A stretch of 64,000 nucleotides of DNA from an uncultured Candidatus Peribacteria bacterium (GTDB lineage Bacteria > Patescibacteriota > Gracilibacteria > Peribacterales > Peribacteraceae), in assembly GCA_964533375.1 (NCBI GenBank), contig CAZHLW010000001.1, forward strand, positions 144,063 through 208,062, written 5' to 3'. The position numbers and the translations under genes are program-made. Each line of letters opens with the position of its first letter. The first letter of the stretch is position 1. This document shows positions 13,145 through 28,726 of the stretch, in pieces. Below the pieces are notes generated by a model. The model was not told the DNA's origin and did no database searches. It saw only the letters and a list, made by a program, of their open reading frames with translations.

Positions 13145-13789
13145 TCAATAATTATTGCGTGTGATTTCAATTACCTGTCCGCGGTCGGCAGTGTGTTTGC
13201 TGGTTTTCCCCTTCAGCATCAGTTCAAACATGGCAGCAGTCTCGTCTGTATTCATTGCGATGCTGACATCTTTTCCAAACGCGCCGACTTTCATGGTGAC
13301 CGTGTCACCAGCTCGCTTGAAGTCCAGGATATCGAGTTCGACATCGCCACCGAGCGCGCCGCCGTTTGCGGAAACCAGGTACTTTTGGGCGTCCAGGTAG
13401 ATGCAGTCTGTGCGGACCATCAGCGCATGCTTTTTGCCACCGAGGGTAAAGATCACTTCTGTCTGGCCGACAAGGTTTTTGTTCTCGGGGAAGGATGAGA
13501 GGAGATCGGACACGGGCGAAGATGCCTTCGTTTCCGGCTCTTCTTCGACTTCGATCTCAGGTTCAACCGCAGGCTCAGGCTCAGCCACCATAACAGGCTT
13601 CGGAAGCGGGCGGGAGCGGATGGCTTTTGGCTTGGGCTTCACGCTTTCAACAGGCTTCGTGTCTGGAACATCAGCCCCCTCGGTGCCATCGGTCACGTCG
13701 CTCTTCTTCACCTTCGGCTTCATCCAGCGTGTCAGCTGCACAGCGAGCGACTTGAGGGGGCGGCCGAAGGGGGAGGAAGGGGGAGTCAC
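13145..13789 (-). CDS. Hypothetical protein (orphan operon gene 6): Pro/Glu/Lys-rich N-terminus and beta-rich C-terminal domain
   Basis: ORF whose start overlaps the stop of the 1081-aa gene by 4 nt. No recognisable domain. Confidence 0.65.
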   Translation of the reverse strand: MTPPSSPFGRPLKSLAVQLTRWMKPKVKKSDVTDGTEGADVPDTKPVESVKPKPKAIRSRPLPKPVMVAEPEPAVEPEIEVEEEPETKASSPVSDLLSSFPENKNLVGQTEVIFTLGGKKHALMVRTDCIYLDAQKYLVSANGGALGGDVELDILDFKRAGDTVTMKVGAFGKDVSIAMNTDETAAMFELMLKGKTSKHTADRGQVIEITRNNY

Positions 13790-17031: not shown

Positions 17032-17053
17032 GAACGATGGAGGAAAAACAGAC

Positions 17054-17524
17054 TCAGGCGCTTTGCTTGAGCGATGGTTCGAATACTTTTGTCAGTGCTG
17101 TAACTGTTGTGTTTACTGCTCTGATGCCGCCGACTGTTATGCCGCCGAGAGCACCAAACAGTGCCTCGCTTGCACCAAGTGCCGCCTGTGGGACTCGTTT
17201 TGCAACGGAATAGATCGTGCTGCCGGTTACATCAAGCACGCGATTCAATCCCTGATTAAATCTGCTCTGTTCGTAGGTAATCTGCTTATACACATCGATC
17301 TGCTTCTGACACTTTTCAATATCCATCTGTTCATTTTCCGTCAGCCCGATAAAGAATGCGCGGCGTGCCTCTTCGGCTGCCTGTATGGCAGCTGGATCTT
17401 TTATTTTCTTTGCGTTCTGTACGGCATCCTCATGATCCAAAAATGCCTGCACGTGCGGAGCGAGTCCCGCTTTCATCTCGGCTATTTCCTGTTCCGGTGA
17501 CTGTGGGGTGGTGTTGGTGTCCAT
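17054..17524 (-). CDS. Hypothetical protein (orphan operon gene 4)
   Basis: Start chosen at MDTNTTPQSPEQE (17524), 13 nt after the upstream stop. Helical, with a Gly/Ala-rich C-terminal segment (AALGASEALFGALGGITVGGIRAV). Confidence 0.6.
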   Translation of the reverse strand: MDTNTTPQSPEQEIAEMKAGLAPHVQAFLDHEDAVQNAKKIKDPAAIQAAEEARRAFFIGLTENEQMDIEKCQKQIDVYKQITYEQSRFNQGLNRVLDVTGSTIYSVAKRVPQAALGASEALFGALGGITVGGIRAVNTTVTALTKVFEPSLKQSA

Positions 17525-17537
17525 GGGAGAAAAAAAG

Positions 17538-18686
17538 TTAGACAGCAGGCTTGAATTCCACGCCGTATGCTTCAATGGTATAGGGTGTTTTTCTCTCTAT
17601 TTGCTTTAATAGATCCTCCAATTCCTGATTGGTTTTAAAGATGTGTGACACAGTGATAGCTGCTCCTGTGAGAGGGTTTTTTGTGTTCGTATCAACAGTC
17701 ATCTGCAACTGGCCATTCTCGATCTTGAGTTCAGTTACAGGCAGTACATCATTTTTCTTCTTATAAGAGAGCTGCCATGGACTTCCGCTAATATCTACCT
17801 TGCCGTTTACGATTTTGGCATTCACTGTTTTTCCGTCGCGGGTTGCACTGACCGCATTCACGCCTTCTGCTTTTAGAGTGACGGGCAGGGAAGGTCCTTC
17901 CGCGGCCTTGTCTTTTCCCGCTTCTGCTTTCACATCTTTAAAAACATGCTCCGTGACGTACTTGTCGAGCTCGGACAGCTCAAATGTTTTTCTGTTTTCT
18001 GTTTTCTGAAGATGGTCTGCAAACTTGAGTGCGGCCGTATCAAAAAAACCTTTTACGGTATATTTTGAGTGAATTCCCTGGATTTCTTTTGCCATCTCAA
18101 TCATATGATTGATGGGCAGAGTATCCAGCTCGGGCCTGTCCGGATGGAAAACCGGGTCGATTCCCTTTTTACGGAGAGATCCGAAGAGCATTGTTCGGTC
18201 CATCCCCAGGAAAGACTCTAAAACAGCAATATTTGCATCCCCGCCAAGGAACGGAATTTTCTGCAGCGCTTCCATGATCGGAGCCAAATGGTACGCCAGG
18301 AAATTGCCGTAGTGCTCGATCATTGTTCCGATATTCGACAGGAAATCTTTCGGTGCCTCAGCTGCTTCCGGTTGATTGGGTTTCAGGTCTGATTCATCAA
18401 TCTTCTTTTCAATATCAGGCAGTTTTTCAAAATCTTCTGCGATTCCCTGCTTTTCGGCTTCGCTCAATTCCTTTCCTTCTTTTGCTTTCTCTTCCATTTT
18501 CTTAATTTCTTCCAGGCGTGCTTTTGCATTTGCATCATTTCCTGCATTGATTTTCTTTTCGAGAGATCTCTTTAAATTTCGCAACTTTCCTCTTGCATCA
18601 AGTTGCTGCTGTTTCTCAGCAGATTGATTGCCCGAATTCGGGATATTCGGGGCACTATTCGGAGAATTTGCAGTGGTTCCGCCCAT
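17538..18686 (-). CDS. Hypothetical protein (orphan operon gene 3): Lys/Glu-rich coiled-coil-like N-terminus and beta-rich C-terminus
   Basis: 382-aa ORF with no recognisable domain. Confidence 0.65.
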   Translation of the reverse strand: MGGTTANSPNSAPNIPNSGNQSAEKQQQLDARGKLRNLKRSLEKKINAGNDANAKARLEEIKKMEEKAKEGKELSEAEKQGIAEDFEKLPDIEKKIDESDLKPNQPEAAEAPKDFLSNIGTMIEHYGNFLAYHLAPIMEALQKIPFLGGDANIAVLESFLGMDRTMLFGSLRKKGIDPVFHPDRPELDTLPINHMIEMAKEIQGIHSKYTVKGFFDTAALKFADHLQKTENRKTFELSELDKYVTEHVFKDVKAEAGKDKAAEGPSLPVTLKAEGVNAVSATRDGKTVNAKIVNGKVDISGSPWQLSYKKKNDVLPVTELKIENGQLQMTVDTNTKNPLTGAAITVSHIFKTNQELEDLLKQIERKTPYTIEAYGVEFKPAV

Positions 18687-18784
18687 AAAGAAGTTGGTAT
18701 AGGTTTCTAGAAATTATAGCAGAAATCACTCAAAATCGCAATTCTATTGGCATTTCGGGTGGTATGAACGCTTTTGAGTCGGTC

Positions 18785-19450
18785 TTAGGCTGCTATGCGG
18801 TTTGCAACTTTGTCCATCAATTGGTCAGAAGCACGCTGGAAAGCAGTTTCCATATCTTTTTTCAGAGTATCTGCCCTGCGTGTTTTCACACTGCGATCAA
18901 ATCCTCTGACCCAAGGTGCAAACAGGGAGGTGATGATGGATTTTCCCGGACGGGTTGTTTTGTCTATCGTTCCCATGTCTGGTAGCAGATCGTGCACGTC
19001 GATACCGCTGTCCTGGAGCAATTTGTAGAATGCATCCAAATCGCTCATCAGCTGGTCGAAATATGCTCCTTCCTGCCTTGCAATCAGATGCGATCCTATG
19101 CCCGCAGGGATCGTTCCGATTGCCGTGAAGTTCAGAAGCGAAAGCATCTGCTGAATATTGGTATCCGTACGCAGTGCTGCAAATGTTTTCCGCATACGGG
19201 CGGCAAGGGAACGGAGTTGTTCGAGTGCGATGTCGCGCGGGAGTTTCACGTCTGCAGGCAGTGCGACAATTGTGTTTATTTGCCGATTTTCCACTGCCAG
19301 TCCTGCCTCTGCACGGCCTTCTTCGGCTGCCAGTTGTTCCGCTGATACATCGATTCCCGCTTTGTGCAGTGCATGGACAGCCGTGTTGACGGATGAACCG
19401 GATTGCTGCTCAGGATTTTCGGCGGTATCGGGGTTATGCATGTGCGTCAT
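18785..19450 (-). CDS. Hypothetical protein (orphan operon gene 2)
   Basis: ORF 18785..19546. Start placed at MTHMHNPDTAEN (19450), but the true start is uncertain. Confidence 0.55.
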   Translation of the reverse strand: MTHMHNPDTAENPEQQSGSSVNTAVHALHKAGIDVSAEQLAAEEGRAEAGLAVENRQINTIVALPADVKLPRDIALEQLRSLAARMRKTFAALRTDTNIQQMLSLLNFTAIGTIPAGIGSHLIARQEGAYFDQLMSDLDAFYKLLQDSGIDVHDLLPDMGTIDKTTRPGKSIITSLFAPWVRGFDRSVKTRRADTLKKDMETAFQRASDQLMDKVANRIAA

Positions 19451-19618
19451 GGTTGTGAGAAAGGAAGGAGTGAAGACGGTCGATCTCAGCGCGTTCCTCG
19501 GAACGCTTTTCTGTTTCCGCACGCATGGCATCTGTCTTCTCTGCAAACGATTGCAAATGCAGCAGGGCGGAGGCTTTTTGGAGCAGTGTGTCGATGGTCA
19601 TGGGAAAAGAGGAAGAGG

Positions 19619-20287
19619 TTAGATGGTCAGGTTGTCCGGGTTGGGTGGGAATTCTACGTCTCTCGGCAGATCCAGGAGCGGCTCTGCTTCTTTCTGCCTC
19701 TGGCCTACCACTTCGTTCCTGCTTTCTTCCGCTTTCCGGATGAGCGTACGCACGGTCTCGGACTGTTCGCTTTCCGGGACAATGGCGTCCATTGAAAATT
19801 CAATATCCATGAATAGTTCACGTTCCATTGCAGCGCCACCGTTGTTCCCTGTCATGCCTTTTACGTAGCGGGGGAGATCTTTTCTCAGCAGTGCGGCACG
19901 ATACTGTTCGACCAGTTCTCCGAGTGTCAGCGAGCGGTCTGACTGCACTTCTGTCACGTGAATTTTCTGTGCAAGCCGCGGAGACGTCCGTTCGATCATT
20001 CTGCGCAATCCTTCGCGTGTCTCATCCAAAAATCGGTTTTCTCCCGCATCTTTGAGCGATGTTTCCAGTACATCAAAGTGCAGGCGTATATCGTTCAATC
20101 CAGTCTGTATTTCAGTGCGCGCCTCCGGCGGAAGGAATTTTCCGTCTGCTTTAAAAAGCTCTGCAACAAGAAGTTCCTGCTGTGCGAGAGGATCTTCCAG
20201 TGTGACTTTTGATTCTTCACCCAACTGGTCCAATTGCTCCCGTGTGGAAGACTGAATGCTTTCTTTGGAAGAGCGTGGTGTTTCCAT
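19619..20287 (-). CDS. Hypothetical protein (orphan operon gene 1)
   Basis: 222-aa acidic, helical ORF. It is the first gene of the minus-strand block and is divergent from hpf. Confidence 0.6.
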   Translation of the reverse strand: METPRSSKESIQSSTREQLDQLGEESKVTLEDPLAQQELLVAELFKADGKFLPPEARTEIQTGLNDIRLHFDVLETSLKDAGENRFLDETREGLRRMIERTSPRLAQKIHVTEVQSDRSLTLGELVEQYRAALLRKDLPRYVKGMTGNNGGAAMERELFMDIEFSMDAIVPESEQSETVRTLIRKAEESRNEVVGQRQKEAEPLLDLPRDVEFPPNPDNLTI

Positions 20288-20409
20288 GGTGTGATGTTTG
20301 TATGAGTAAACTTAATGATATTATACTCTAAATAAAATAATTTCGCAATATATCCGCTTTCTCTTCCGGTTTGTGCTAGGATGGTTTTTGTTCTTTCCCC
20401 CCTGTACCT

Positions 20410-20772
20410 ATGCATATCGAACACTTCGAAAAAGGGCTTACGTATACGGATAAGGAATTGCTGGCTGTTGCCCGCAAGATCGGCAAAATGGCCACGTATT
20501 GCGGCCGGTTGAAAGATGAATCATCAATTATCCGCGTGGAAGCGGAGCGGCGGGACACGAAAAAGGAGAAAGACGCCATCAAAGTAATGATCACGGTTGA
20601 GTTGCCCAAAAAGCAGTTCCGCGCCGAGTCACGCAAAGCGGCTGTAGTGGAAGCGTTTGACCGTGCGATTGAAAAAATTGAACCCCAGCTTATCCGCTAC
20701 AAGGAAATGCGCAGTCTGAAAGGACGTGTGCGCAAGGCACGGACTGAGCGGAATCGTTCCCTCGCCGCCTAA
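20410..20772 (+). CDS. hpf: Ribosome hibernation promoting factor / RaiA family (short form)
   Basis: MHIEHFEKGLTYTDKELLAVARKIGKMATYC...IKVMITVELPKKQFRAESRKAAVVEAFDRAIEKIEPQLIRYKE matches the sigma-54 modulation / S30AE fold pattern. Confidence 0.75.
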   Translation: MHIEHFEKGLTYTDKELLAVARKIGKMATYCGRLKDESSIIRVEAERRDTKKEKDAIKVMITVELPKKQFRAESRKAAVVEAFDRAIEKIEPQLIRYKEMRSLKGRVRKARTERNRSLAA

Positions 20773-20773
20773 C

Positions 20774-22285
20774 ATGATCTACACCTTCCCTCGTGTCAGT
20801 CTCGCTTTGTTCTTCTGTCTTTTTTTTCTGAACACCGCGCAGGCGCAGCCTGCGGATACAGCGCTTTCTGCAGTTATTACCGGTCCGGATGATGTGGCGG
20901 TCGGCCGCACCATTGTGCTGGATGCAACAGTGAACCGGAGTTCGGGAAGTATCCTGTCGTACCAGTGGTTCGTGGGAACGAAGACCCAGCCCATCAGCGA
21001 GACGGTGGAAGCTGTGTACACGCCGGAGACGGCGGGTAGTCTGGAGTTCCGCCTGGTGGTGACTGCGGAAGGTACAGCGGGAGAGGAGCAGACCTCGGAG
21101 ATTACCCATGTGGTGAACGTGTACAACCGCAAAATTGTACTGATTGCATCGACGGCGGTGCCGCCGGAAAAGCTGGTGCTGCATCAGAATATCGCATCCG
21201 ATGCAGGAGTGTTTTTGCGCATCCTCCGGCCAAATCCCTCCACATCTCCCCTGGGTGATGAAGAAGCGCTCAGCATGCTGCTGTCCGAACGTGCCGATGC
21301 CATTGCCGGCGCCGATGCCATTGTGCTCTGGACCGAAGGAATTGCCGGACTGCAGTCGCTGCTCCGTGCGATTTCGGGAAATGCTGAACTGATTGCGGGG
21401 ATGAATAACCAGACGATTGTGCTGGTCACAGACGGCAGTCTGCAGGCGCTGTCTCGCATTGCACGCGGCCAGTATTCCGTGCTCAAGCCGCAGCAGATTG
21501 TGCTCACCAGAAAAGAGGCGATCGATCCGCTTCTGACCGCTGCGAACAGTGAACAGTTCCTGCAGGAACTTCAGACGCGCGATATGGAATACGCTACCAT
21601 CAATGCATCGACTGCGGGACTGCGTCCGTGGAATATCCTGTCGTCACTGGTGAACACCATGCTGACCAAAGGAGTCCCGAGCCAGACGGTGATTCTGCTT
21701 CTGGTGCTGCCCTTCATCGCGCTCATTCTTGCGTTCCTGAAGCAGGTGGTCGGCATCACGACTTTCGGCTTGTACACGCCATCTATCATTACTCTTAGCT
21801 TTCTAGCTTTGGGATGGAAATTGGGCGTATTTTTTCTGCTCTTCATCCTCTTTACCGGTTATGCCACGCGCACGCTCATGAAGCGCTGGCGGCTGCTGTA
21901 CATTCCGAAAGTTGCGGTCATCCTGACAGTCGTCAGCTTCACACTTCTTATTCTGATGGGAGTGAGTGCGGCGTACGGGATTACATTCTCGCGCGAAACA
22001 ATTTTCATTCTCCTCATCATGAGCACGCTGTCGGAAAGTTTCCTGGCGCTTAAGACGGAGGAAGGATGGAAGTCCGCCATCATCGGTGTGTTGGAAACAA
22101 TTGCCGCGTCTCTCATCTGCGTCTTTATTGTGCAGTGGGATGTGTTCCAGTCAGTTATTCTCGCATATCCGGAAATCGTGCTTTTGACCGTGGTGCTGGA
22201 TGTTATGCTGGGACGGTGGACGGGACTCAGGTTGATGGAATATATCCGCTTTAGAGAAGTGTTTAAGCACCTTCAAGAGGAATAA
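20774..22285 (+). CDS. Secreted Ig-like domain + middle domain + 7TM module (7TM of the inactive-transglutaminase-associated type)
   Basis: The ATG at 20774 is 1 nt after the hpf stop. Signal peptide MIYTFPRVSLALFFCLFFLNTAQA. C-terminal 7TM block VVGITTFGLYTPSIITLSF...RWRLLYIPKVAVILTVV...LGRWTGLRLMEYIRF, which I recall as the signature of the 7TM partner of RimK-like ATP-grasp ligases. Confidence 0.7.
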   Translation: MIYTFPRVSLALFFCLFFLNTAQAQPADTALSAVITGPDDVAVGRTIVLDATVNRSSGSILSYQWFVGTKTQPISETVEAVYTPETAGSLEFRLVVTAEGTAGEEQTSEITHVVNVYNRKIVLIASTAVPPEKLVLHQNIASDAGVFLRILRPNPSTSPLGDEEALSMLLSERADAIAGADAIVLWTEGIAGLQSLLRAISGNAELIAGMNNQTIVLVTDGSLQALSRIARGQYSVLKPQQIVLTRKEAIDPLLTAANSEQFLQELQTRDMEYATINASTAGLRPWNILSSLVNTMLTKGVPSQTVILLLVLPFIALILAFLKQVVGITTFGLYTPSIITLSFLALGWKLGVFFLLFILFTGYATRTLMKRWRLLYIPKVAVILTVVSFTLLILMGVSAAYGITFSRETIFILLIMSTLSESFLALKTEEGWKSAIIGVLETIAASLICVFIVQWDVFQSVILAYPEIVLLTVVLDVMLGRWTGLRLMEYIRFREVFKHLQEE

Positions 22286-22346
22286 GGTCAAGGAAAAGGT
22301 TAAGAGTAAGGGAAGGTTCCTTAACCCTAACCTCAACCCAGACCTC
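22284..22346. repeat. Hexamer-periodic palindromic element
   Basis: AAGGTC AAGGAA AAGGTT AAGAGT AAGGGA AGGTTCC followed by TTAACC CTAACC TCAACC CAGACC. It starts inside the TAA stop codon of the 7TM gene. Confidence 0.85.
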
Positions 22347-22356
22347 TCTCGTACAC

Positions 22357-24762
22357 ATGTTCCCTTTTACTTCCAACAAAGGCATCCTCGGACTCAACGC
22401 CCGTAATCTTTTGTACATCAAGCCATATAATCCGCGCAAAGCGGTGGCATTGGCAGATGACAAACTGAAGACCAAAGCATTCCTCGCGGCACGCGGTGTG
22501 CCGGTCGCAAAAATTTATGCGCGCATTGAAAACCGCGATCAGCTCCGCACATTCGATTTCAAAAGTCTACCCGAAGAATGTGTCCTGAAACCCAACTACG
22601 GATTCGGCGGGGAAGGCATCATGATTCTCCGTGGCCGGAATAAACAGGGGCAGTTTCTGGAGCAGGGGAAAAGGCCCATCACAGAAGAAAAAATGCGCGA
22701 GCATATTGAAGATATCCTGGATGGAAAATTCTCCGTGAACGGCCGCGAAGACACGGCGTTCTTCGAAAAAATCCTGGTGGCAGATTCCTGTTTTGCACCG
22801 TTTCATCCTGCTGGATTGCCGGATTTACGCATTGTCGTGTTCAACCTTGTTCCCGTGATGGCAATGCTCCGCATTCCGACGGTTGAGAGCGGCGGCAAAG
22901 CAAACGTGCATCAGGGGGGAATCGGCATCGGCATCGATCTTGCCAAAGGGACGACAACGTACGCCACACAGTACAACAAGATCATTCACCAGTTGCCGCA
23001 CGGCGGCAGCCCCTCCGGTATTGCAATTCCCGGCTGGGAGGAAATTCTTCTCATTGCGTCGCGCATCCAGTACAACACGAACATCGGCTATCTGGCGGTC
23101 GACCTCACCATCGATGCGGATATGGGCCCCGCTCTTCTGGAAGTGAACGCGCGCGCGGGACTGATGGTGCAGGTGGCGAATCTTGCGCCGCTGCGGGCCC
23201 GGCTTGAACGCGTGAGCGGTATTGATGTCACCACACCGGAAAAAGGGGTACGCCTGGCGCAGGATCTGTTCGGGCAGAAGCGCAAAGCACATGCGGAGGG
23301 GGAAGAGGAACGGCCGGTTCTCGGAACACACGAATCGCTTTCTGTTGCGGGAATCGGGGCGACTATTGATGTACCTGCATTACTGTCCGCAGAAGAAGAG
23401 CGCACGATTTTTTCCCCGAGCCTGATTGCCGAACTCCAGAGCATTAGCGGGGCGACAAAGCTGGAAACGGACGAAGAGGGATATCGCGTAAAGTTCGCCC
23501 TCGGCGGACGGAAAATCCAGACGATTGCGAGAGCGGGGGAGGTGCCGCAGCATGTCCGTGCGGTTGTGGGGCGCCGCGATCTGTCGGGATTTTTGATCGA
23601 TCCCGTGAAGACCCCGTCGGTCGTTATGGCCTCGGGAGTGAAGGAAGATCTGCGTGCCATCGATAAGCTGCTTGCGGGGATTGATCACGACCTGCTGCTT
23701 CTCAAATACGTGAAACCCGACAACCTGTTTGAGGAACGCGCCCGCGCCATCGACGATCTGCGCTACAACCCCGTGTTCCAGTATCAGCCGGTCGATGTGA
23801 ATATGGAGGAAATTGAGGAGCGGCTGCTCGGACTTTCCCCGGATGATTCTCCGTTCGGGCTGCTGATGCGGAAAAAATGCAGAGAGCTTTTGCAGCGTAT
23901 TACCGTGCTGCGTTCGCGTGGCAATGCCAGAGCCTTTACCGATGCCTGCAGCGCAATGTACGGCCAGCCGACGTCGGTCCTCCTTTCTGCTGCGTCATCA
24001 GTCCTTCGCAGCCAGCAGGCGTGTGATGTCACACGGCCGGACTCACTCCTGACTGCAGAGCAGATGGAGCCGCTGCTTGAAAAAGTGCTGACTGCGTACG
24101 GTCTGCATGACTGGCATGTCGAGATCCGCGACAGCGTGGTGGCGCGCATTACAGTCGGCAGCAATTCCGTCTACCTCCGCCGCGATGCACTCTTCTCCAA
24201 AGACGATGTGCAGGGTCTCATCGCTCACGAAATTGAAACACATGTTCTCACATCTGAAAACGGCAGTCATCAGCCTTACGAACTCTTCCGCCGCGGCTTT
24301 GCCAACTACATGGACACGCAGGAAGGACTCGCGGTGTATAACCAGAATCGCTTCCTCTCGCCGCATCACGAAAAACGCTATGGTCCGGCACGCAATATTC
24401 TGGGCACAGCCTACGCCCTCGAGCATTCCTTTGCCGATACCCGCCGCTACCTGCACGAAGAGCTCGGCTTCGATGCAGATAAAGCGCTTACCAAAGCCAT
24501 CGACATGAAGCGCGGTCTTGTCCATACATCAGAACCGGGAGGCTTCACCCGCGGTATCGTCTACTTCCGCGGACTGCGCGCCATCGAGCATTTCATTGCC
24601 GAAGGGGGAGATCTGCGTCGCCTCTACATCGGCAAAATCGCACTGGAAGATCTGGACATGCTCAAAGACGTCGCCGGCATTAAAGATCCACTCATTCTGC
24701 CGGAGTTTTTGCGTGAAGAACCTGTTACTCCTGTGAAGAAAAAGCGTACCAAGAAAAACTAG
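22357..24762 (+). CDS. Fusion protein: alpha-L-glutamate-ligase-like ATP-grasp (N-terminal) + DUF1704/QEGLA-motif HExxH carboxypeptidase-like domain (C-terminal)
   Basis: N-terminus: GILGLNARNLLYIKPYNPRKAVALADDKLKTK ... LKPNYGFGGEGI ... LEVNARAGL. C-terminus: LIAHEIETHVL (HExxH) and MDTQEGLAVYNQ (QEGLA motif). Confidence 0.8.
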   Translation: MFPFTSNKGILGLNARNLLYIKPYNPRKAVALADDKLKTKAFLAARGVPVAKIYARIENRDQLRTFDFKSLPEECVLKPNYGFGGEGIMILRGRNKQGQFLEQGKRPITEEKMREHIEDILDGKFSVNGREDTAFFEKILVADSCFAPFHPAGLPDLRIVVFNLVPVMAMLRIPTVESGGKANVHQGGIGIGIDLAKGTTTYATQYNKIIHQLPHGGSPSGIAIPGWEEILLIASRIQYNTNIGYLAVDLTIDADMGPALLEVNARAGLMVQVANLAPLRARLERVSGIDVTTPEKGVRLAQDLFGQKRKAHAEGEEERPVLGTHESLSVAGIGATIDVPALLSAEEERTIFSPSLIAELQSISGATKLETDEEGYRVKFALGGRKIQTIARAGEVPQHVRAVVGRRDLSGFLIDPVKTPSVVMASGVKEDLRAIDKLLAGIDHDLLLLKYVKPDNLFEERARAIDDLRYNPVFQYQPVDVNMEEIEERLLGLSPDDSPFGLLMRKKCRELLQRITVLRSRGNARAFTDACSAMYGQPTSVLLSAASSVLRSQQACDVTRPDSLLTAEQMEPLLEKVLTAYGLHDWHVEIRDSVVARITVGSNSVYLRRDALFSKDDVQGLIAHEIETHVLTSENGSHQPYELFRRGFANYMDTQEGLAVYNQNRFLSPHHEKRYGPARNILGTAYALEHSFADTRRYLHEELGFDADKALTKAIDMKRGLVHTSEPGGFTRGIVYFRGLRAIEHFIAEGGDLRRLYIGKIALEDLDMLKDVAGIKDPLILPEFLREEPVTPVKKKRTKKN

Positions 24763-26360: not shown

Positions 26361-26389
26361 ATATTTCTATGATAGTCTATACTTTTCCT

Positions 26390-28726
26390 ATGTCCGATAC
26401 TCTGACAAATCTCCGCAAGCGTGTCGCCAGAGCGTCCACCATGTCCGGTGTGTACCGTTGGCTGGATAGCGACGGAACGATTATTTACGTCGGCAAGGCA
26501 AAGAACCTGCGGAACCGTCTGAAGAGTTATGTGCAGACGAATGCCATGAAAGATCAGGGGCCGTGGAAGCAATCGATGATCCAGCAGCTTGCCGATTTCG
26601 ATGTGACCGTCACGAACTCCGAACTTGAGGCGCTCATTTTAGAGACGAATCTCATCAAGCAGCATCGCCCCCGGTACAACGTGCTCATGAAGGACGACAA
26701 GAACTACGTGTACGTCCGCATCACGCTCAACGACCCCTACCCGTCGGTCGACGTGACCCGGCAATTACTGAAAGACGGCGCAAAATATTTCGGACCGTTC
26801 CTGAGTCCGTTTGAGGTGCGTCACACGCTCAACATGCTCCACGATTTTTTCCGGTGGAGAGGATGCGTTCCCGCAGTCGATGCGCTCAATCGTGCGTCGG
26901 GGGACCGGGAGGCGGTGTTCAATACCGGGAAATTAAAACCTTGTCTCGATTCGCAGATCGGCCAGTGTAACGGGCTCTGTGCCGGCATTGTGTCGAAGGA
27001 AGAATACCGGCGCCGTATCGACGAAGTCGTTCGCTTCTTCAAAGGTGACTACGATCCGGTCATTGCCCGTGGTCGCGAACTCATGACCGTCTACGCAACG
27101 CAGAAAAAATTCGAGCGCGCCGCAGAAGTGCGTGACACGCTGCAGATGGTGGAGCATATGAAGGAGCGACAACTCGTCTCAGACACATCCGGTGATGACG
27201 TCGATGTTGTTGGTGTCGCATTGCTCTCAGGAAAAGCCCATGTGGAAGTCATGCAGAAACGCATGGGAAAACTGATCGGTGAACATCACCTGTCGCTCAT
27301 GGGCAAAGCGGAATCGGTGGGCGATGTGCTCGAACAATTCCTGCCGCAGTACTACCAGGATGTTGTCGATCTTCCGGAGAGTGTTCTCATTGGCGAGACC
27401 TTCGAAGGAGTCGATGCACTCGAAGAATTCCTCACGCAGAAGCGCGGCAAAAAAGTGAAGATCCGCATTCCCGAACGCGGGACAAAATCACAATTACTGC
27501 AACTCGCGGAAACCAACGCCCACGAAAAAGCGAAGCAGGCGGAAGCAAGCTGGGAAGCGGAGCAGCGTAACCTCGATACCGCTATCAGTGAACTCGTTTC
27601 GTACCTTGGGCTGGAGAAAGATCCTGTCCGTATTGAGGGCTATGACATCTCGCATAGTGGCGGCACAGAGACAGTCGGCAGCATGGTTGTCTTTGTGAAC
27701 GGCAAGCCAAAAAACGATCAGTACCGATCGTTCACAATCCATACATTAGCAAGCGGCGTGATCGACGATTATCGCTCGCTGAAAGAAGTGCTGACTCGTC
27801 GCTTACGTCACATCGCGGGTGGATGGAAAATGGAAGAAGGCGAGTGGGAGAAGAGTGGGATCACAGTCTCGAGGGCGAAGAAGATCGAAGCGCCTCTTAT
27901 CGAGGACAAGGTATCGGTTATGGGTTATCAGTTATCGGGAGATGTAGTCGAAGAAGGAGCTGAGAAGAAAGTTTTTCCTTATGCGGATTTCATCGTCGCC
28001 CGACACGAGAGTGAACTTGTGGGATTTGTGAGATTGCATGAGCACGAGAGTAAAACAGTTGAATTATCAGCTCTCTGGATCGACGAACAATTCCAGCACA
28101 CCAAGCTTGGACAGTTCCTTATCCGCGCGATTCTCCGGACGGTAAAGAAGGGGAAAGTCTACGTGTGCATCGACCCATCGCTCGAACAGGACTACGCTTC
28201 GCTCGGGTTCCGGCATGTGCTCAAAAATCCCAAGGGTCTGGAAGAGTGTGGCGAGAAAATGGTGATGGTCTACGATTCTGCATCACAGAAAACAGACAGC
28301 TCGCTTGGCACACCGCCAGACTTGCTCGTGATCGACGGCGGCAAGGGCCAGCTCAGTACCGTGCACGAAGTCCTCAAACAATTTGACATCACCATTCCTG
28401 TCATCGGCTTGGCAAAGAGGGAAGAGGAAGTCTTTGTCCCCGGTAAATCCGACCCCATCATTTTCCCGCAGGACAGTCAGGCAAAATTCATGCTGATGCG
28501 CCTGCGTGATGAGGCTCACAGATTCGCAAACAATCACCGCAAGAAACGCATCTCCAAACACACATTCGAATCACAGCTCGATCGCGTGCCCGGGCTTGGC
28601 GAAGAGGGGAAGCGGAAGCTGCTCCTGAAGTTTGGTGATGTCGATACCATCCGCAAACAGAATGATGAGGCGCTTTTGGAAGTCATCACCGAAGAACAGA
28701 TTGCGGGGCTGCGGCAGATTTTGTAA
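26390..28726 (+). CDS. uvrC: Excinuclease ABC subunit C with ~168-aa internal insertion
   Basis: GIY-YIG (GVYRWLDSDGTIIYVGKAKNLRNRLKSY), UVR domain, endonuclease domain (IEGYDISHSGG...), PDLLVIDGGKGQL and a C-terminal (HhH)2. ATG at 26390 (MSDTLTNLRK) is preferred over 26369. Confidence 0.9.
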   Translation: MSDTLTNLRKRVARASTMSGVYRWLDSDGTIIYVGKAKNLRNRLKSYVQTNAMKDQGPWKQSMIQQLADFDVTVTNSELEALILETNLIKQHRPRYNVLMKDDKNYVYVRITLNDPYPSVDVTRQLLKDGAKYFGPFLSPFEVRHTLNMLHDFFRWRGCVPAVDALNRASGDREAVFNTGKLKPCLDSQIGQCNGLCAGIVSKEEYRRRIDEVVRFFKGDYDPVIARGRELMTVYATQKKFERAAEVRDTLQMVEHMKERQLVSDTSGDDVDVVGVALLSGKAHVEVMQKRMGKLIGEHHLSLMGKAESVGDVLEQFLPQYYQDVVDLPESVLIGETFEGVDALEEFLTQKRGKKVKIRIPERGTKSQLLQLAETNAHEKAKQAEASWEAEQRNLDTAISELVSYLGLEKDPVRIEGYDISHSGGTETVGSMVVFVNGKPKNDQYRSFTIHTLASGVIDDYRSLKEVLTRRLRHIAGGWKMEEGEWEKSGITVSRAKKIEAPLIEDKVSVMGYQLSGDVVEEGAEKKVFPYADFIVARHESELVGFVRLHEHESKTVELSALWIDEQFQHTKLGQFLIRAILRTVKKGKVYVCIDPSLEQDYASLGFRHVLKNPKGLEECGEKMVMVYDSASQKTDSSLGTPPDLLVIDGGKGQLSTVHEVLKQFDITIPVIGLAKREEEVFVPGKSDPIIFPQDSQAKFMLMRLRDEAHRFANNHRKKRISKHTFESQLDRVPGLGEEGKRKLLLKFGDVDTIRKQNDEALLEVITEEQIAGLRQIL

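What the first reader, a model, noticed from the sequence alone, without database searches (positions are those of the whole stretch)
20410..24762. hpf-7TM-[ATP-grasp ligase fused to an HExxH/QEGLA carboxypeptidase]: a possible one-polypeptide system for adding and removing a C-terminal residue
Seen in the sequence: the 801-aa protein at 22357-24762 joins two modules. The N-terminal ~290 aa are a RimK-related 'alpha-L-glutamate ligase-like' ATP-grasp (GILGLNARNLLYIKPYNPRK..DDKLKTK; LKPNYGFGGEGI; LEVNARAGL). The C-terminal ~450 aa carry HEIETH (HExxH) and the MDTQEGLAVYNQ 'QEGLA' motif of DUF1704. The gene just upstream (20774-22285) encodes a signal peptide, an Ig-like repeat region and a 7TM block ending LGRWTGLRLMEYIRF. 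That gene starts 1 nt after the hpf stop, so hpf, the 7TM gene and the fusion gene look co-transcribed. Established knowledge, as I recall it: comparative genomics has noted that this ATP-grasp clade neighbours 7TM proteins, but no substrate is known. RimK-type ligases extend protein C-termini (ribosomal protein S6). DUF1704 is the family of the eukaryotic tubulin detyrosinase MATCAP, whose counterpart TTL is also an ATP-grasp. Inference: a ligase fused to a carboxypeptidase, coupled to a membrane sensor-like 7TM protein and to a ribosome hibernation factor, could form a reversible C-terminal amino-acid tagging cycle. The target might be ribosome-associated. I do not know of a characterised example of this fusion.
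Basis: partly seen in the sequence, partly recalled or inferred. Interest (0 to 1): 0.7.

Follow-up and report, generated by a model that had tools for sequence, protein, structure and literature searches.

The report
Fused glutamate-ligase/carboxypeptidase with 7TM partner
An uncultured Peribacteria genome encodes one enzyme that joins a RimK-like amino-acid ligase, a dead retropepsin domain and a MATCAP-type carboxypeptidase, always next to a membrane protein whose conserved inner tail ends in Glu-Glu; this looks like a bacterial add-and-trim system for C-terminal glutamates, and the neighbouring ribosome hibernation gene is probably not part of it.

Summary
The three ORFs and all quoted motifs are present as described. 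Both enzymatic halves are strongly supported by Pfam, catalytic-residue conservation, an AF2 model (pLDDT 91.7) and Foldseek hits to MATCAP and RimK. The fusion is not an artefact: it recurs in hundreds of Patescibacteria (CPR) proteins down to about 28% identity.

Three things change the picture:
- **The "linker" is a third domain.** Residues ~317-430 are a RimB/RloA-type retropepsin domain that has lost its DTG catalytic motif.
- **The conserved unit is two genes.** It is the 7TM gene plus the fusion gene, found in every locus with enough upstream DNA (75/75 metagenome loci and 10 further CPR loci). hpf is upstream only in Peribacteria; other clades have RuvC, L7/L12, EarP and others.
- **The 7TM tail ends in -EE.** The cytoplasmic C-terminal tail is the best-conserved part of the 7TM protein and ends in -EE in 73/75 loci and in five distant clades. 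It is basic where the retropepsin is intact.

Best reading: a fused derivative of the Rim/Rlo glutamate-ligase plus polyglutamate-peptidase systems, with MATCAP as the eraser. The 7TM tail is the leading, untested candidate acceptor. This is a new variant of a known kind.

The parts
20410..20772 (+). Short HPF/YfiA-like gene (120 aa). It is a lineage-specific upstream neighbour, probably co-transcribed, and not a conserved component of the module.
   Evidence: PF02482 E 1.7e-7, above the Pfam cut-off. TIGR00741 scores 31.8, below its 40.9 cut-off. Upstream linkage is seen only in Peribacteria loci and is absent elsewhere.
20774..22285 (+). RloB-like 7TM_transglut-family membrane protein (503 aa). 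Layout: signal peptide, PKD-like domain, unassigned ~180-aa ectodomain, 7TM block, cytoplasmic tail.
   Evidence: PF14402 E 4e-26 (residues 301-496). PKD hits at 1e-4, below cut-off in the window but listed unmarked (precomputed E <= 1e-5) for the partner genes in L009, L010, L012, L096 and L101. No transglutaminase domain: NF052267 RloB scores 48.7 against a 900 cut-off, and only on the 7TM part. The hydropathy scan gives an N-terminal signal-like segment and a hydrophobic block at residues 299-480.
20870..21106 (+). PKD-like extracellular domain (residues 33-111).
   Evidence: PF18911, PF22352 and PF00801 at E 1e-4 to 9e-4.
21668..22213 (+). Seven-transmembrane block (residues ~299-480).
   Evidence: PF14402 match; hydrophobic segments.
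22214..22282 (+). Predicted cytoplasmic C-terminal tail, ...LGRWTGLRLMEYIRFREVFKHLQEE-COOH. It is the most conserved part of the protein. The terminal Glu-Glu is encoded at 22277-22282. Proposed acceptor or docking element for the fusion enzyme.
   Evidence: Mean column identity is 0.82 for the tail, 0.72 for the TM block and about 0.5 for the ectodomain. Of 75 orthologues, 73 end in -EE or -EEE, while position -3 varies. The -EE ending is also present in L008, L009, L011, L100 and L101.
22357..24762 (+). Three-domain cytoplasmic enzyme (801 aa): ATP-grasp ligase, pseudo-retropepsin, MATCAP-type metallocarboxypeptidase.
   Evidence: AF2 model: pLDDT 91.7, pTM 0.80, with low confidence only at residues 1-5 and 309-316 and a dip around 421-430.
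22357..23280 (+). ATPgrasp_ST / RloC-like (RimK-related) amino-acid ligase domain, residues 1-308. Predicted catalytic residues: K78 (LKPNYGFGGEGI), D249, and E262/N264 (LEVNARAGL, 23140-23148).
   Evidence: PF14397 at 199 bits; TIGR02291 at 255.7 bits. K78, D249, E262 and N264 are invariant in a 97-sequence alignment reaching 26% identity. Foldseek hits RimK 5zct, 5zk6 and 4iwx at E 6e-8 to 1.5e-7 with TM(target) 0.46-0.54, and also LysX/ArgX.
23305..23646 (+). Degenerate RimB/RloA-type retropepsin-like domain, residues ~317-430. The catalytic D-T-G-A position reads S344-A345-E346-E347 (23386-23397). The C-terminal signature VVGRRDLSGFLIDP is retained.
   Evidence: hhalign of the Peribacteria mid-domain profile against intact-DTGA domains of ATP-grasp+retropepsin proteins: probability 99.1%, E 6e-19, 109 columns. 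The intact relatives reach PF05618 above its cut-off (P0175 38.1 bits, P0197 29.7 bits). A combined profile hits the RloA-type structures 9g58, 9g59 and 2pma at E 4e-14. The domain model has pLDDT 88.4 and is beta-rich. There is no direct Pfam or PDB hit for the degenerate form alone.
23689..24726 (+). MATCAP/DUF1704 (TIGR02421 'QEGLA') metallocarboxypeptidase domain, residues ~445-790. HExxxH = H624-E625-x3-H629 (24226-24243). The third metal ligand is E656 in QEGLA (24319-24333).
   Evidence: PF08014 at 169 bits; TIGR02421 at 189 bits. H624, H629, E656 and G657 are invariant and E625 is nearly invariant. PDB sequence hit to human MATCAP 7z5g: 1e-7 with the single sequence, 5e-33 with the profile. 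Foldseek against 7z5g: E 3.7e-10, TM(target) 0.63.

Best explanation
The real unit is a two-gene, membrane-associated module found across the Patescibacteria.

**Gene 1** is a 7TM_transglut-family (RloB-like) membrane protein. It has an extracellular PKD-like domain plus an unassigned ectodomain, and a cytoplasmic C-terminal tail that ends in Glu-Glu.

**Gene 2** is a cytoplasmic three-domain enzyme:
- a RimK/RloC-like ATP-grasp amino-acid ligase;
- a catalytically dead RimB/RloA-type retropepsin domain;
- a MATCAP-type HExxxH metallocarboxypeptidase.

The module is a fused, derived form of the Rim (RimK+RimB) and Rlo (RloA+RloB+RloC) systems, which pair a glutamate ligase with a polyglutamate peptidase. 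Here the MATCAP domain has taken over the hydrolase role from the retropepsin.

**Proposed mechanism (inferred).**
1. The ATP-grasp domain adds alpha-linked glutamates to a free acidic C-terminus at the membrane.
2. The MATCAP domain removes them one at a time.
3. The dead retropepsin keeps a binding or scaffolding role for the acidic tail.
4. The most likely acceptor is the -EE tail of the 7TM partner itself. The balance of adding and trimming could then be set by what the ectodomain senses.

**Shown:** domain identities, conserved catalytic residues, the fusion, 7TM linkage, tail conservation, and the lineage-limited hpf linkage.
**Inferred:** Glu as the amino acid, the identity of the acceptor, and any signalling role. 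hpf is just the upstream gene in Peribacteria.
For: **Domains and active sites.** Pfam and NCBIfam hits; invariant residues across 97 sequences; AF2 model plus Foldseek hits to MATCAP, RimK and LysX/ArgX.

**Third domain.** hhalign gives 99.1% probability, E 6e-19, against intact-DTGA domains. The alignment includes a Legionella RloA-like protein. The combined profile hits RloA-type structures at E 4e-14.

**An evolutionary series is visible.**
- ATP-grasp + intact retropepsin, no MATCAP (L095, L097).
- The same gene followed by a separate MATCAP gene (L096).
- Triple fusions with intact DTG (P0143, P0301, P0175).
- Triple fusions with a degenerate motif, such as the window protein.
- D[TS]G is intact in 4/81 MATCAP fusions against 25/38 non-MATCAP proteins, Fisher p = 2e-12, not corrected for phylogeny.

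**7TM linkage.** A 7TM gene lies immediately upstream on the same strand in all 75 metagenome loci with enough flanking DNA, and in every one of the 10 other CPR loci examined: the seven fusion loci L008-L012, L100 and L101, and the ligase+retropepsin loci L095-L097.

**Tail.**
- It is the best-conserved region of the 7TM protein.
- 73/75 orthologues end in -EE or -EEE.
- -EE is kept in Dojkabacteria-type loci where the rest of the tail has diverged (...SNTEE...GDMEE).
- Tails are basic in five of five loci with an intact or near-intact retropepsin (four DTG, one ETG) and non-acidic in two proteobacterial RloB-like proteins.

**Precedents.**
- RimK polyglutamylates the C-terminus of RpsF, which ends ...SEE in E. 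coli. RimB trims it and stimulates poly-Glu synthesis, and an active RimB-RimK hybrid exists (PMC11957791).
- RloA cleaves polyglutamate, and rloB/rloC deletions suppress the rloA triple-mutant defects (bioRxiv 10.1101/2025.03.18.643919).
- MATCAP-family TMCP1/2 remove C-terminal Glu and shorten polyglutamate chains (PMC10499314).
Against: - There is no biochemical evidence for any member of this clade. The amino acid ligated is unknown.
- PF14397 was named for an association with sugar transfer. Some CPR loci add a GT1 and PBP1a, or 2-4 further ATP-grasp genes. That could point to a cell-envelope or peptide-metabolite product rather than a protein tail.
- In Pseudomonas the RloA peptidases are periplasmic, so in that system the product of RloB/RloC must reach the periplasm. 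That argues for export rather than tail modification there.
- The -EE tail could be a docking or pseudo-substrate element rather than the acceptor.
- The link between -EE and retropepsin decay holds at clade level but is imperfect. Four -EE loci still show a D[ST]G triplet, and L010 and L012 have MATCAP fused but no -EE.
- Both NCBIfam equivalog cut-offs are missed, so function cannot be transferred from those (themselves hypothetical) families.
- The fold comparison for the isolated mid-domain failed technically.
Confidence: 0.55

Rival explanations
1. Synthesis and turnover of a free or exported product. The ATP-grasp domain makes poly-alpha-glutamate, or another short peptide or amino-acid decoration on an envelope precursor. 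The 7TM protein exports or presents it, as inferred for RloB/RloC in Pseudomonas. The MATCAP domain degrades excess product in the cytoplasm. The -EE tail only docks or autoregulates the enzyme.
For: - Rlo genetics: rloB or rloC deletion rescues loss of the periplasmic RloA peptidases. This implies that a product dependent on RloB and RloC reaches the periplasm.
- RimK makes free poly-alpha-L-glutamate, and RimB stimulates this.
- Related CPR loci carry a GT1 and PBP1a (L095, L097) or several further ATP-grasp ligases (L010-L012).
- The Pfam name of PF14397 refers to sugar transfer.
- Classical RloB-like tails are not acidic.
Against: - It does not explain why the exact C-terminal Glu-Glu, and the stop codon right after it, are fixed across clades while position -3 and, in Dojkabacteria, the whole tail vary.
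- Placing a degrading exopeptidase in the same polypeptide as the synthetase is wasteful for a product meant for export, unless the two are tightly regulated.
- No extra ligase, glycosyltransferase or PBP gene is co-oriented with the module in the window.
Confidence: 0.25
2. The cycle acts on a ribosome-associated protein (HPF, S6, L25 or similar), and hpf, the 7TM gene and the fusion gene form one functional operon that couples membrane sensing to ribosome hibernation.
For: - In Peribacteria hpf is 1-20 nt upstream and co-oriented in most loci, roughly 41 of 58 with enough sequence.
- No + strand terminator-like site lies between the genes.
- L25 is the convergent downstream gene.
- Dojkabacteria-type loci sit right after L10-L7/L12.
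- RimK's known target is ribosomal protein S6.
Against: - hpf is absent upstream in 15/15 loci of the 42-46% identity clade and in all seven fusion loci of other CPR clades. There the upstream gene is RuvC, EarP (divergent), an Ig/fn3 surface protein (divergent), BCAT, SpoIIE and others.
- hpf is on the opposite strand in L046.
- In Peribacteria the downstream L25-GT2-uvrC genes are just as syntenic as hpf, so the conservation is likely clade-wide synteny.
- HPF C-termini are basic and variable, and L25 ends ...GEKKE.
- CPR genomes are small and rich in translation genes, so chance adjacency is likely.
Confidence: 0.07
3. A tyrosination-type cycle rather than glutamylation. The ligase adds a single non-acidic residue, such as Tyr or Phe, to the -EE end, as TTL does on alpha-tubulin -EE. 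The MATCAP domain removes it.
For: - MATCAP's founding activity is removal of Tyr from ...EEY (7z5g/7z6s; PMC10499314).
- The acceptor-like tail ends in -EE, exactly like detyrosinated alpha-tubulin.
- NCBI already names homologues 'tyrosine/phenylalanine carboxypeptidase domain-containing protein'.
- Weak or faint TTL (PF03133) matches occur in a few homologues.
Against: - The ATP-grasp domain belongs to the RimK/RloC-related clade: TIGR02291 'alpha-L-glutamate ligase-like' at 5e-76, and best fold matches to RimK and LysX/ArgX.
- The window protein has no TTL hit at E <= 0.01.
- The ancestral partner peptidase (RimB/RloA type) is polyglutamate-specific.
- The encoded tail length varies between EE and EEE (59 versus 14 loci), which looks like a poly-E register.
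Confidence: 0.08
4. Artefact: a frameshifted or mis-assembled junction of two or three separate genes.
For: An unfused arrangement, with ATP-grasp+retropepsin and a separate MATCAP gene, does exist in another clade (L096).
Against: - The window has one uninterrupted 801-codon ORF.
- An identical protein is on record in NCBI and Logan assemblies on contigs up to 971 kb.
- Hundreds of independent assemblies carry the same architecture.
- The AF2 model is confident across both domain junctions apart from short linkers.
Confidence: 0.01

Closest known systems
RloABC operon of Pseudomonas aeruginosa (secreted retropepsin RloA; inactive-transglutaminase/7TM protein RloB; ATP-grasp RloC). mBio 2025 / bioRxiv 10.1101/2025.03.18.643919.
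   Same: - The ATP-grasp is of the same clade (PF14397/TIGR02291).
- A 7TM_transglut partner is encoded directly upstream.
- A retropepsin-type module is associated with the ligase.
- A classical rloABC operon was recovered on a Legionella plasmid (L093), and its RloA-like protein aligns with the window's middle domain.
   Different: - The retropepsin is fused to the ligase, has no signal peptide (so it is cytoplasmic), and has lost its DTG motif.
- A MATCAP metallocarboxypeptidase has been added.
- The 7TM protein has a PKD-like plus unassigned ectodomain instead of the inactive transglutaminase, and an acidic -EE tail instead of a basic or neutral one.
RimK-RimB (-RimA) ribosomal protein S6 glutamylation system and the RimBK hybrid of Desulfotalea psychrophila (PMC7343187, PMC11957791).
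   Same: - A cytoplasmic ATP-grasp glutamate ligase is paired with, and in RimBK fused to, a retropepsin-type peptidase that removes the added glutamates.
- The acceptor is a protein C-terminus ending in acidic residues.
- The fold match to RimK is the best ATP-grasp match.
   Different: - The window protein is not RimK proper: PF08443 scores 18.7 against a 21 cut-off, and TIGR00768 scores 43.3 against 143.4.
- Domain order is ligase then retropepsin, the reverse of RimBK.
- The retropepsin is inactive and a MATCAP domain supplies the hydrolase.
- The module is obligatorily linked to a 7TM protein rather than to S6.
Eukaryotic tubulin tail enzymes: MATCAP/TMCP1-2 (KIAA0895L/KIAA0895) with TTL/TTLL ATP-grasp ligases.
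   Same: - The C-terminal domain is homologous to MATCAP, with the same HExxxH plus E(E/Q)GLA metal site and the same fold.
- The logic is the same: an ATP-grasp writer and a MATCAP eraser acting on an acidic C-terminal tail ending in -EE.
- TMCPs also remove glutamates.
   Different: - Writer and eraser are one polypeptide.
- The ligase is RimK/RloC-like, not TTL-family.
- The putative acceptor is a membrane-protein tail, not tubulin.
- The organism is a CPR bacterium.
Proteobacterial TIGR02421 'flavohemoglobin expression-modulating QEGLA motif protein' (DUF1704).
   Same: The same MATCAP-type domain and motif. In rhizobial plasmids the gene is also next to an ATP-grasp ligase (glutathione-synthetase type) and a glutamate-related amidohydrolase (L099).
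   Different: - Those proteins are 617-663 aa with an FGase-like or unassigned N-terminal half.
- They have no RimK-like fusion and no 7TM neighbour in the two loci inspected.
- The window domain scores below the TIGR02421 cut-off (189 against 338.65).

Membership tests
ATPgrasp_ST (PF14397) / TIGR02291 'alpha-L-glutamate ligase-like' (RloC-like) | Sequence match above the curated thresholds. | tested here: inconclusive
   PF14397 scores 199 bits against a 31.4 cut-off, so it is met. TIGR02291 scores 255.7 bits against a 314.2 hypothetical-equivalog cut-off, so it is not met. The protein is a member of the Pfam family and a divergent relative of the TIGR02291 equivalog group.
ATPgrasp_ST (PF14397) / TIGR02291 'alpha-L-glutamate ligase-like' (RloC-like) | ATP-grasp fold with the conserved phosphate-binding Lys and the D/E/N Mg-binding triad. 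| tested here: met
   K78, D249, E262 and N264 are invariant in 97 sequences. Foldseek hits RimK 5zct, 5zk6 and 4iwx at E 6e-8 to 1.5e-7. The correspondence to RimK D248/E260/N262 is from my memory of UniProt P0C0U4 and was not tested here.
ATPgrasp_ST (PF14397) / TIGR02291 'alpha-L-glutamate ligase-like' (RloC-like) | Gene adjacency to a 7TM_transglut (PF14402) gene. | tested here: met
   Adjacent in the window, in 75/75 metagenome loci with enough flank and in all 10 other CPR loci.
ATPgrasp_ST (PF14397) / TIGR02291 'alpha-L-glutamate ligase-like' (RloC-like) | ATP-dependent ligation of L-glutamate. | not testable with these tools
   No member of this clade has a published substrate. This needs an enzymatic assay.
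RimK proper (PF08443 / TIGR00768) | Sequence match above the curated thresholds. | tested here: not met
   PF08443 scores 18.7 against 21. TIGR00768 scores 43.3 against 143.4.
MATCAP / DUF1704 (PF08014; TIGR02421 QEGLA) | Sequence match above the curated thresholds. | tested here: inconclusive
   PF08014 scores 169.3 bits against 27, so it is met. TIGR02421 scores 189 against 338.65, so it is not met.
MATCAP / DUF1704 (PF08014; TIGR02421 QEGLA) | HExxxH motif plus a downstream E(E/Q)G(L)A glutamate as the third metal ligand. | tested here: met
   H624-E625-I-E-T-H629 and Q655-E656-G-L-A659. H624, H629 and E656 are invariant and E625 is nearly invariant. The motif definition comes from PMC10499314.
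MATCAP / DUF1704 (PF08014; TIGR02421 QEGLA) | MATCAP fold. | tested here: met
   Foldseek top hits are 7z5g and 7z6s, E 3.7e-10, probability 1.00, TM(target) 0.63. The profile hit to 7z5g is E 5e-33.
MATCAP / DUF1704 (PF08014; TIGR02421 QEGLA) | Metallocarboxypeptidase activity on C-terminal Tyr or Glu. | not testable with these tools
   Needs an enzymatic assay.
RimB/RloA retropepsin-like peptidase (PF05618) | Detectable homology to the family. | tested here: met
   There is no direct Pfam hit even at E <= 10 and no PDB hit with the degenerate-only profile. However, hhalign against intact relatives gives 99.1% probability and E 6e-19. Those relatives reach PF05618 above its cut-off and match the RloA-type structures 9g58, 9g59 and 2pma.
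RimB/RloA retropepsin-like peptidase (PF05618) | Catalytic Asp-Thr/Ser-Gly motif. | tested here: not met
   The aligned position reads S344-A345-E346 in the window. The motif is degenerate in 77/81 MATCAP fusions among the representatives and in 73 of the 77 metagenome fusion proteins that could be aligned. I therefore file it as a pseudo-peptidase homologue, not as an active member.
RloB / 7TM_transglut (PF14402; NF052267) | C-terminal 7TM module. | tested here: met
   PF14402 scores 92.4 bits against 25, covering profile positions 50-247 of 248.
RloB / 7TM_transglut (PF14402; NF052267) | Periplasmic inactive transglutaminase domain. | tested here: not met
   No transglutaminase hit. NF052267 matches only model positions 311-507 and scores 48.7 against 900. 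The ectodomain is PKD-like plus an unassigned region.
RloABC system | A separate, secreted (signal-peptide-bearing), catalytically active retropepsin. | tested here: not met
   The only retropepsin-like module is internal to the cytoplasmic fusion protein and is degenerate. This was checked for the genes flanking the module (about 13.8-29.8 kb), not the whole window.
HPF/YfiA as a component of the module | Linkage conserved wherever the module occurs. | tested here: not met
   Present upstream only in the Peribacteria clade. Absent in 15/15 loci of the 42-46% identity clade and in L008-L012, L095-L097, L100 and L101.
TTL/TTLL tubulin ligases (PF03133) | Sequence match to the family. | tested here: not met
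   The window protein has no PF03133 hit at E <= 0.01. Some homologues give only sub-threshold hits.

The most novel reading that the evidence does not exclude
This is a prokaryotic 'C-terminal tail code'. A single writer-reader-eraser polypeptide (RimK-like ligase, dead-retropepsin binding domain, MATCAP carboxypeptidase) reversibly lengthens and shortens a glutamate run on the -EE C-terminus of its own 7TM membrane partner. Signals sensed by the extracellular PKD-like ectodomain would be converted into a graded cytoplasmic mark. This would be the first membrane-protein substrate for a RimK-type ligase, the first assigned function for bacterial DUF1704/QEGLA proteins, and a bacterial analogue, possibly an evolutionary relative, of the MATCAP half of the tubulin tyrosination/glutamylation cycle.
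Probability: 0.3. Interest if true: 0.8.

Novelty: new variant of a known kind. Interest (0 to 1): 0.6.

Why it matters
**An open question in Rlo-type systems.** These systems (ATP-grasp plus 7TM_transglut plus peptidase) affect osmotic tolerance, antibiotic susceptibility and biofilm formation in Pseudomonas. Their substrate is unknown.

**What the CPR variant adds.**
- It puts ligase and peptidase in one chain and swaps the peptidase type. That argues the essential chemistry is adding and removing residues at a free C-terminus.
- It gives the first strong functional prediction for the bacterial DUF1704/QEGLA (MATCAP-like) family: a deglutamylase-type carboxypeptidase working against a RimK-like ligase.
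- The invariant -EE end of the 7TM partner yields a concrete, cheap experiment: synthetic tail peptide, ATP and amino acids, followed by LC-MS.
- It provides a clear example of a protease domain kept as a pseudo-enzyme after functional replacement.
- It links bacterial enzymes to the eukaryotic tubulin-tail enzymes.

**What it does not add.** It gives no evidence for a new ribosome-hibernation mechanism.

Tried and rejected
- **Frameshift or assembly artefact.** Rejected by recurrence.
- **hpf as a system component.** Rejected by the context survey.
- **Direct Pfam scan of the 151-aa 'linker'.** Nothing found even at E <= 10. A degenerate-only profile against PDB sequences gave only noise, E > 1. 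The retropepsin assignment therefore rests on profile-profile comparison and on intermediate sequences.
- **Foldseek of the isolated mid-domain model.** It failed three times and the server then stopped answering, so there is no structural confirmation of that domain beyond the beta-rich AF2 topology.
- **Metagenome scan with the 46-sequence distant alignment.** It was repeated with a closer alignment, so the 80-locus survey is biased towards 42-68% identity relatives.
- **First ORF pass.** It chose genetic code 25 wrongly for many loci, because read-through merged the 7TM and fusion ORFs. This was corrected. Only L008 needs code 25; under code 11 its 7TM gene has 14 internal stops, all recoded under code 25, and the fusion gene fails to translate to P0271 under code 11.
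- **71-nt spacer between the 7TM and fusion genes.** Its hairpin is not significant, z = -1.1. No + strand terminator-like site lies between hpf, the 7TM gene and the fusion gene, and no + strand sigma-70-like promoter was found. Co-transcription is plausible but unproven.
- **Iyer et al. 2009 (Mol Biosyst 5:1636).** This paper defined these ATP-grasp/7TM neighbourhoods, but it is not in the held library. What I say about it is from memory.
- **Literature search for 'DUF1704' together with 'ATP-grasp'.** No papers found.
- **TTL-type ligase.** Considered and set aside because there is no PF03133 hit.

Full report

Yes. The ORF listing finds the three co-oriented ORFs at the stated coordinates: hpf-like 20410-20772, 7TM gene 20774-22285 (ATG start; a longer GTG-started ORF begins at 20726) and the 801-aa ORF 22357-24762. 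The sequence reads TAA-C-ATG at the hpf/7TM junction, and a 71-nt spacer precedes the fusion gene.

Pfam results:
- hpf: PF02482, E 1.7e-7.
- 7TM protein: PF14402 7TM_transglut, E 4e-26, residues 301-496, plus weak PKD matches at 33-111.
- Fusion protein: PF14397 ATPgrasp_ST, E 1.2e-58, residues 16-287, and PF08014 MATCAP, E 1.6e-49, residues 467-773.

NCBIfam gives TIGR02291 (5e-76) and TIGR02421 'QEGLA' (1.4e-55). Both are below the curated equivalog cut-offs. The 7TM part has a weak match to 'osmotic stress tolerance membrane protein RloB'.

HEIETH is HExxxH, the MATCAP/M49-type motif, not HExxH (PMC10499314). The C-terminal '~450 aa' is not one module (section 3).

**2. Is the fusion genuine, and how widespread is it?**

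- A word-indexed search returns an identical protein on contigs up to 971 kb. It also returns more than 120 clusters of ~800 aa with the same two Pfam domains at 60-90% identity, named by their sources as Candidatus Peribacteria/Peregrinibacteria.
- Three GTDB genomes of 'uncultured Candidatus Peribacteria' carry it.
- An exhaustive phmmer search of 1.84 billion 50%-identity representatives finds 3,429 relatives at E <= 1e-3 and 621 at E <= 1e-30.
- Of the best 150 representatives, 81 carry ATP-grasp and MATCAP in one chain at 28-57% identity (some are truncated gene calls). A further 56 are ATP-grasp proteins without MATCAP, and 13 are MATCAP-only.
- A profile search with 46 distant fusions recovers them from Gracilibacteria, Dojkabacteria and unclassified Patescibacteria.

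An assembly artefact is excluded. In public databases the protein is already annotated, as 'DUF1704 domain-containing', 'tyrosine/phenylalanine carboxypeptidase domain-containing' or 'alpha-L-glutamate ligase-like protein/TIGR02421 family'. I found no paper on it.

**3. The 'linker' is a third domain, a dead retropepsin.**

Some ~430-470-aa relatives aligned to query residues 4-420, and some ~470-aa ones to 321-787. That suggested residues ~310-440 fold as a unit.

- The shorter ATP-grasp proteins carry, at exactly this position, an intact retropepsin signature, for example KAKLDTGAYRTS...IIGRRDLKSFLIDP in P0188. They hit PF05618 (RimB-like 'Zn_protease') above its cut-off: P0175 at 38.1 bits and P0197 at 29.7 bits.
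- The window segment keeps the C-terminal signature (VVGRRDLSGFLIDP). At the catalytic position it reads L-L-S-A-E-E instead of K-I-D-T-G-A.
- Profile-profile comparison of 121 Peribacteria mid-domains with 28 intact ones gives 99.1% probability, E 6e-19, over 109 columns.
- A combined profile hits the solved RloA-type structures 9g58 and 9g59 and Legionella 2pma at E 4e-14, and retroviral proteases more weakly.
- The degenerate form on its own finds nothing in Pfam or the PDB. Foldseek on the isolated domain model failed technically. The assignment is therefore by transitive homology, plus a confident beta-rich model (pLDDT 88.4).
- Among representatives, D[TS]G is intact in 4/81 MATCAP fusions and in 25/38 proteins without MATCAP. 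Fisher p = 2e-12, not phylogenetically corrected.

**4. The two enzymatic domains look active.**

- In a 97-sequence alignment reaching 26% identity, K78, D249, E262 and N264 (ATP-grasp) and H624, H629 and E656 (MATCAP metal site) are invariant, and E625 is nearly so. The same holds in the 46 distant fusions.
- 74 of 77 full-length metagenomic fusions keep both motifs.
- The AF2 model is confident: mean pLDDT 91.7, pTM 0.80. Low confidence is confined to residues 1-5 and 309-316, with a dip near 421-430. This gives three folded domains.
- Foldseek against the PDB ranks human MATCAP first (7z5g, E 3.7e-10, TM normalised to target 0.63). Next come RimK, both alone and bound to RpsF (5zct, 5zk6, 4iwx, 7qys), LysX/ArgX and cyanophycin synthetase. 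Most of these ligases add amino acids to peptide or protein carboxylates: RimK and LysX/ArgX act at protein C-termini, and cyanophycin synthetase extends a polymer.

**5. What is conserved around it?**

In Peribacteria loci sharing 60-100% identity, the order is hpf, 7TM, fusion, then convergent (DUF3048), L25 and GT2, then uvrC. This order is kept even where the genes further upstream differ.

The seven fusion loci examined in other CPR clades:

| Locus | Clade | Upstream gene | 7TM gene directly upstream? |
|---|---|---|---|
| L008 | Gracilibacteria, code 25 | EarP (divergent) | yes |
| L009 | unassigned | Ig/fn3 surface protein (divergent) | yes |
| L010, L012 | unassigned | YebC-RuvC | yes |
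| L011, L100 | Dojkabacteria-type | L10-L7/L12 | yes |
| L101 | unassigned | ORFan (divergent) | yes |

None of these has hpf upstream.

A metagenome scan returned 80 further loci at 42-68% identity. My ORF and HMM survey found:
- a 7TM gene just upstream on the same strand in all 75 loci with enough flanking DNA;
- hpf directly upstream in roughly 41 of 58 testable loci of the 50-68% clade;
- hpf in 0 of 15 loci of the 42-46% clade, where the neighbours are a divergent Ig/fn3 surface protein, BCAT, SpoIIE or RNR;
- hpf on the opposite strand in L046.

The conserved unit is therefore 7TM plus fusion. hpf is lineage-specific synteny, although within Peribacteria it is probably co-transcribed. 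No + strand terminator-like site lies between the genes, and the only sizeable intergenic region is the divergent one at 20288-20409.

**6. An evolutionary series.**

- L095 and L097: 7TM | ATP-grasp + intact retropepsin | a second RimK-like ligase | GT1 | PBP1a.
- L096: PKD-7TM | ATP-grasp + intact retropepsin | a separate 431-aa MATCAP gene | ATP-grasp.
- L012, P0143 and P0175: triple fusion with DTG intact.
- The window, L008, L009, L011, L100 and L101: triple fusion with the motif lost.
- The classical proteobacterial form, with a separate RloA-like retropepsin, an inactive-transglutaminase/7TM protein and an RloC-like ligase, was recovered on a Legionella adelaidensis plasmid.

The simplest history is that MATCAP was recruited next to a ligase-retropepsin gene and then fused to it, after which the retropepsin's catalytic motif decayed.

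**7. The 7TM tail.**

The protein has an N-terminal signal-like segment and a hydrophobic block at 299-480. With an outside N-terminus and seven helices, the C-terminus should be cytoplasmic. This topology is inferred from hydropathy and the Pfam family, not predicted with a dedicated tool.

- The last 23 residues are the best-conserved part of the protein. Mean column identity is 0.82, against 0.72 for the TM block and about 0.5 for the ectodomain.
- Of 75 orthologues, 59 end in -EE and 14 in -EEE. One ends in -QE and one in -EES. Position -3 varies among Q, A, I, L, T, H, Y and M, and translation always stops right after the glutamates.
- The five distant degenerate-retropepsin loci also end in -EE. 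This includes the Dojkabacteria-type tails, which are otherwise unrelated (...NLSNTEE...DIGDMEE).
- The five loci with an intact or near-intact retropepsin have basic ends (...KNIK...KKKGA...IIKKM...KYGKSS...ARKSH). The Legionella and Aeromonas RloB-like proteins end ...AKARS and ...PGKDK.
- The association holds at clade level and is not perfect. Four -EE loci retain a D[ST]G triplet.

A fixed free Glu-Glu carboxy-terminus matches RimK's substrate: E. coli S6 ends ...SEE (table in PMC11957791). It also matches the end that TTL and MATCAP act on in alpha-tubulin.

**8. Mechanism.**

Established elsewhere:
- RimK polyglutamylates the RpsF C-terminus and makes free poly-alpha-glutamate.
- RimB is a retropepsin that removes those glutamates and stimulates RimK. 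A natural RimB-RimK hybrid is active (PMC7343187; PMC11957791).
- RloA cleaves polyglutamate in vitro. Deleting rloB or rloC suppresses the defects of the rloA triple mutant.
- MATCAP-family TMCP1/2 remove C-terminal Tyr and Glu and shorten polyglutamate chains.

Inference for this locus: the ATP-grasp domain adds alpha-linked Glu to a free acidic C-terminus, and the MATCAP domain trims it residue by residue. An exopeptidase needs exactly such a free end. The dead retropepsin, which keeps many conserved basic residues (R349, R377, K379, K386, R407), holds the acidic chain or scaffolds the two active sites.

The leading candidate acceptor is the -EE tail of the 7TM partner; I put about 0.3-0.35 on that specific point. 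The main rival, at about 0.25, is that a free or envelope-bound product is made and exported via the 7TM protein, as the Pseudomonas genetics suggest, with the tail serving only as a dock. A ribosomal target is unlikely (about 0.07).

**9. Comparison with known systems and novelty.**

- *Works like:* RimK/RimB and RimBK, RloABC, and conceptually TTLL/MATCAP.
- *Member of:* the Pfam families ATPgrasp_ST, MATCAP and 7TM_transglut.
- *Not a member of:* the NCBI equivalogs TIGR02291, TIGR02421 and RloB; RimK proper; TTL. As a peptidase, it is also not an active PF05618 member.

The idea of a ligase and its antagonistic peptidase in one chain has a characterised precedent in RimBK. Four features are not described in anything I could find:
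- recruitment of a MATCAP-type carboxypeptidase;
- the retained pseudo-retropepsin;
- the PKD-type ectodomain in place of the transglutaminase;
- the -EE tail.

I therefore rate it a new variant of a known kind, with interest 0.6. It offers a directly testable substrate hypothesis for an enigmatic, clinically relevant system, and the first functional handle on bacterial DUF1704 proteins. The hibernation-factor angle that made the original finding attractive does not hold.

Noticed in passing
window 26369-28726 (+): The UvrC gene has a GNAT acetyltransferase domain (residues ~538-617) inserted inside the C-terminal RNase H-like endonuclease domain, so PF08459 is split into two stretches. The same UvrC+GNAT architecture is present in the Peribacteria loci L004-L006 but not in L007.
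   Followed up: partly
window 13786-20287 (- strand): A block of five consecutive minus-strand ORFs (1081, 173, 382, 253 and 222 aa) has no Pfam match. It is divergent from hpf, and a sigma-70-like promoter match at 20348-20320 points into it. A similar ORFan block with different gene sizes, including a 2024-aa protein, occupies the same position in L004-L006.
   Followed up: partly
L096 3364-9255: An unfused intermediate: PKD-7TM | ATP-grasp + intact DTGA retropepsin | a separate 431-aa MATCAP gene (HEILGH...EEGMA) | another ATP-grasp. It is a likely snapshot of the state before gene fusion.
   Followed up: partly
L010 8352-12760; L011 8494-10437; L012 8361-14376; L095/L097 6416-11045: In other CPR clades the 7TM plus ligase module is followed by two to four additional RimK/Ddl/GSH-S-type ATP-grasp genes, with DegT and DUF3541 in L012. 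In L095 and L097 it is followed by a RimK-like ligase, a GT1 glycosyltransferase and a class A PBP. This hints at a larger peptide or cell-envelope pathway in those lineages.
   Followed up: no
L098 4071-6062; L099 3412-7154: Proteobacterial QEGLA/MATCAP-like proteins are 617-663 aa. In Vibrio the N-terminal half is an N-formylglutamate-amidohydrolase (FGase) domain. In a Shinella plasmid the gene lies between a separate FGase gene and a glutathione-synthetase-type ATP-grasp. tblastn found 128 plasmid records with such genes, mostly rhizobia. This is a second, independent pairing of MATCAP with an ATP-grasp ligase and a glutamate-related enzyme.
   Followed up: partly
L009 2180-4297; L081 1091-3517; L087 1-2058; L089 1501-3360; L092 118-2232 (all - strand): In L009 and in several loci of the 42-46% identity clade, a large secreted Ig-like/fn3 repeat protein with a C-terminal TM anchor is encoded divergently just upstream of the 7TM gene. 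It recurs often enough to be a possible extracellular partner of the PKD ectodomain.
   Followed up: no
proteins P0208, P0210, P0191: Other elaborations of the ligase+retropepsin core exist. Two have a second ATP-grasp domain fused at the C-terminus (854 and 926 aa). One has a C-terminal extension that looked YdjC-like by eye only and was not scanned (688 aa).
   Followed up: no
L011 1313-6029; L100 1-4029: In two Dojkabacteria-type genomes a short (241-aa, 7TM-only) partner gene and the fusion gene sit immediately downstream of the L11-L1-L10-L7/L12 operon, with MreB convergent downstream. This is probably synteny, but it is the only other translation-gene adjacency that recurs.
   Followed up: no
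L056, L072, L076, L089 (fusion proteins, mid-domain): Four loci with -EE tails still show IDSGEERT or IDTGRSRT at the retropepsin catalytic position. Decay of the motif is therefore not complete, or has partly reverted, within the -EE clade.
   Followed up: partly
L008 (whole locus): The Gracilibacteria locus needs genetic code 25 (UGA = Gly). Under code 11 the 7TM gene has 14 internal stops, all recoded under code 25, and the fusion gene does not translate to P0271 under code 11. Any automated survey of this family must allow for both codes. Conversely, using code 25 on Peribacteria falsely merges the 7TM and fusion ORFs.
   Followed up: yes
window 22286-22356: The 71-nt spacer between the 7TM and fusion genes contains a small inverted repeat (GGTTAAG...CTTAACC). 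Its folding energy is not unusual (z = -1.1), and there is no T-run.
   Followed up: yes
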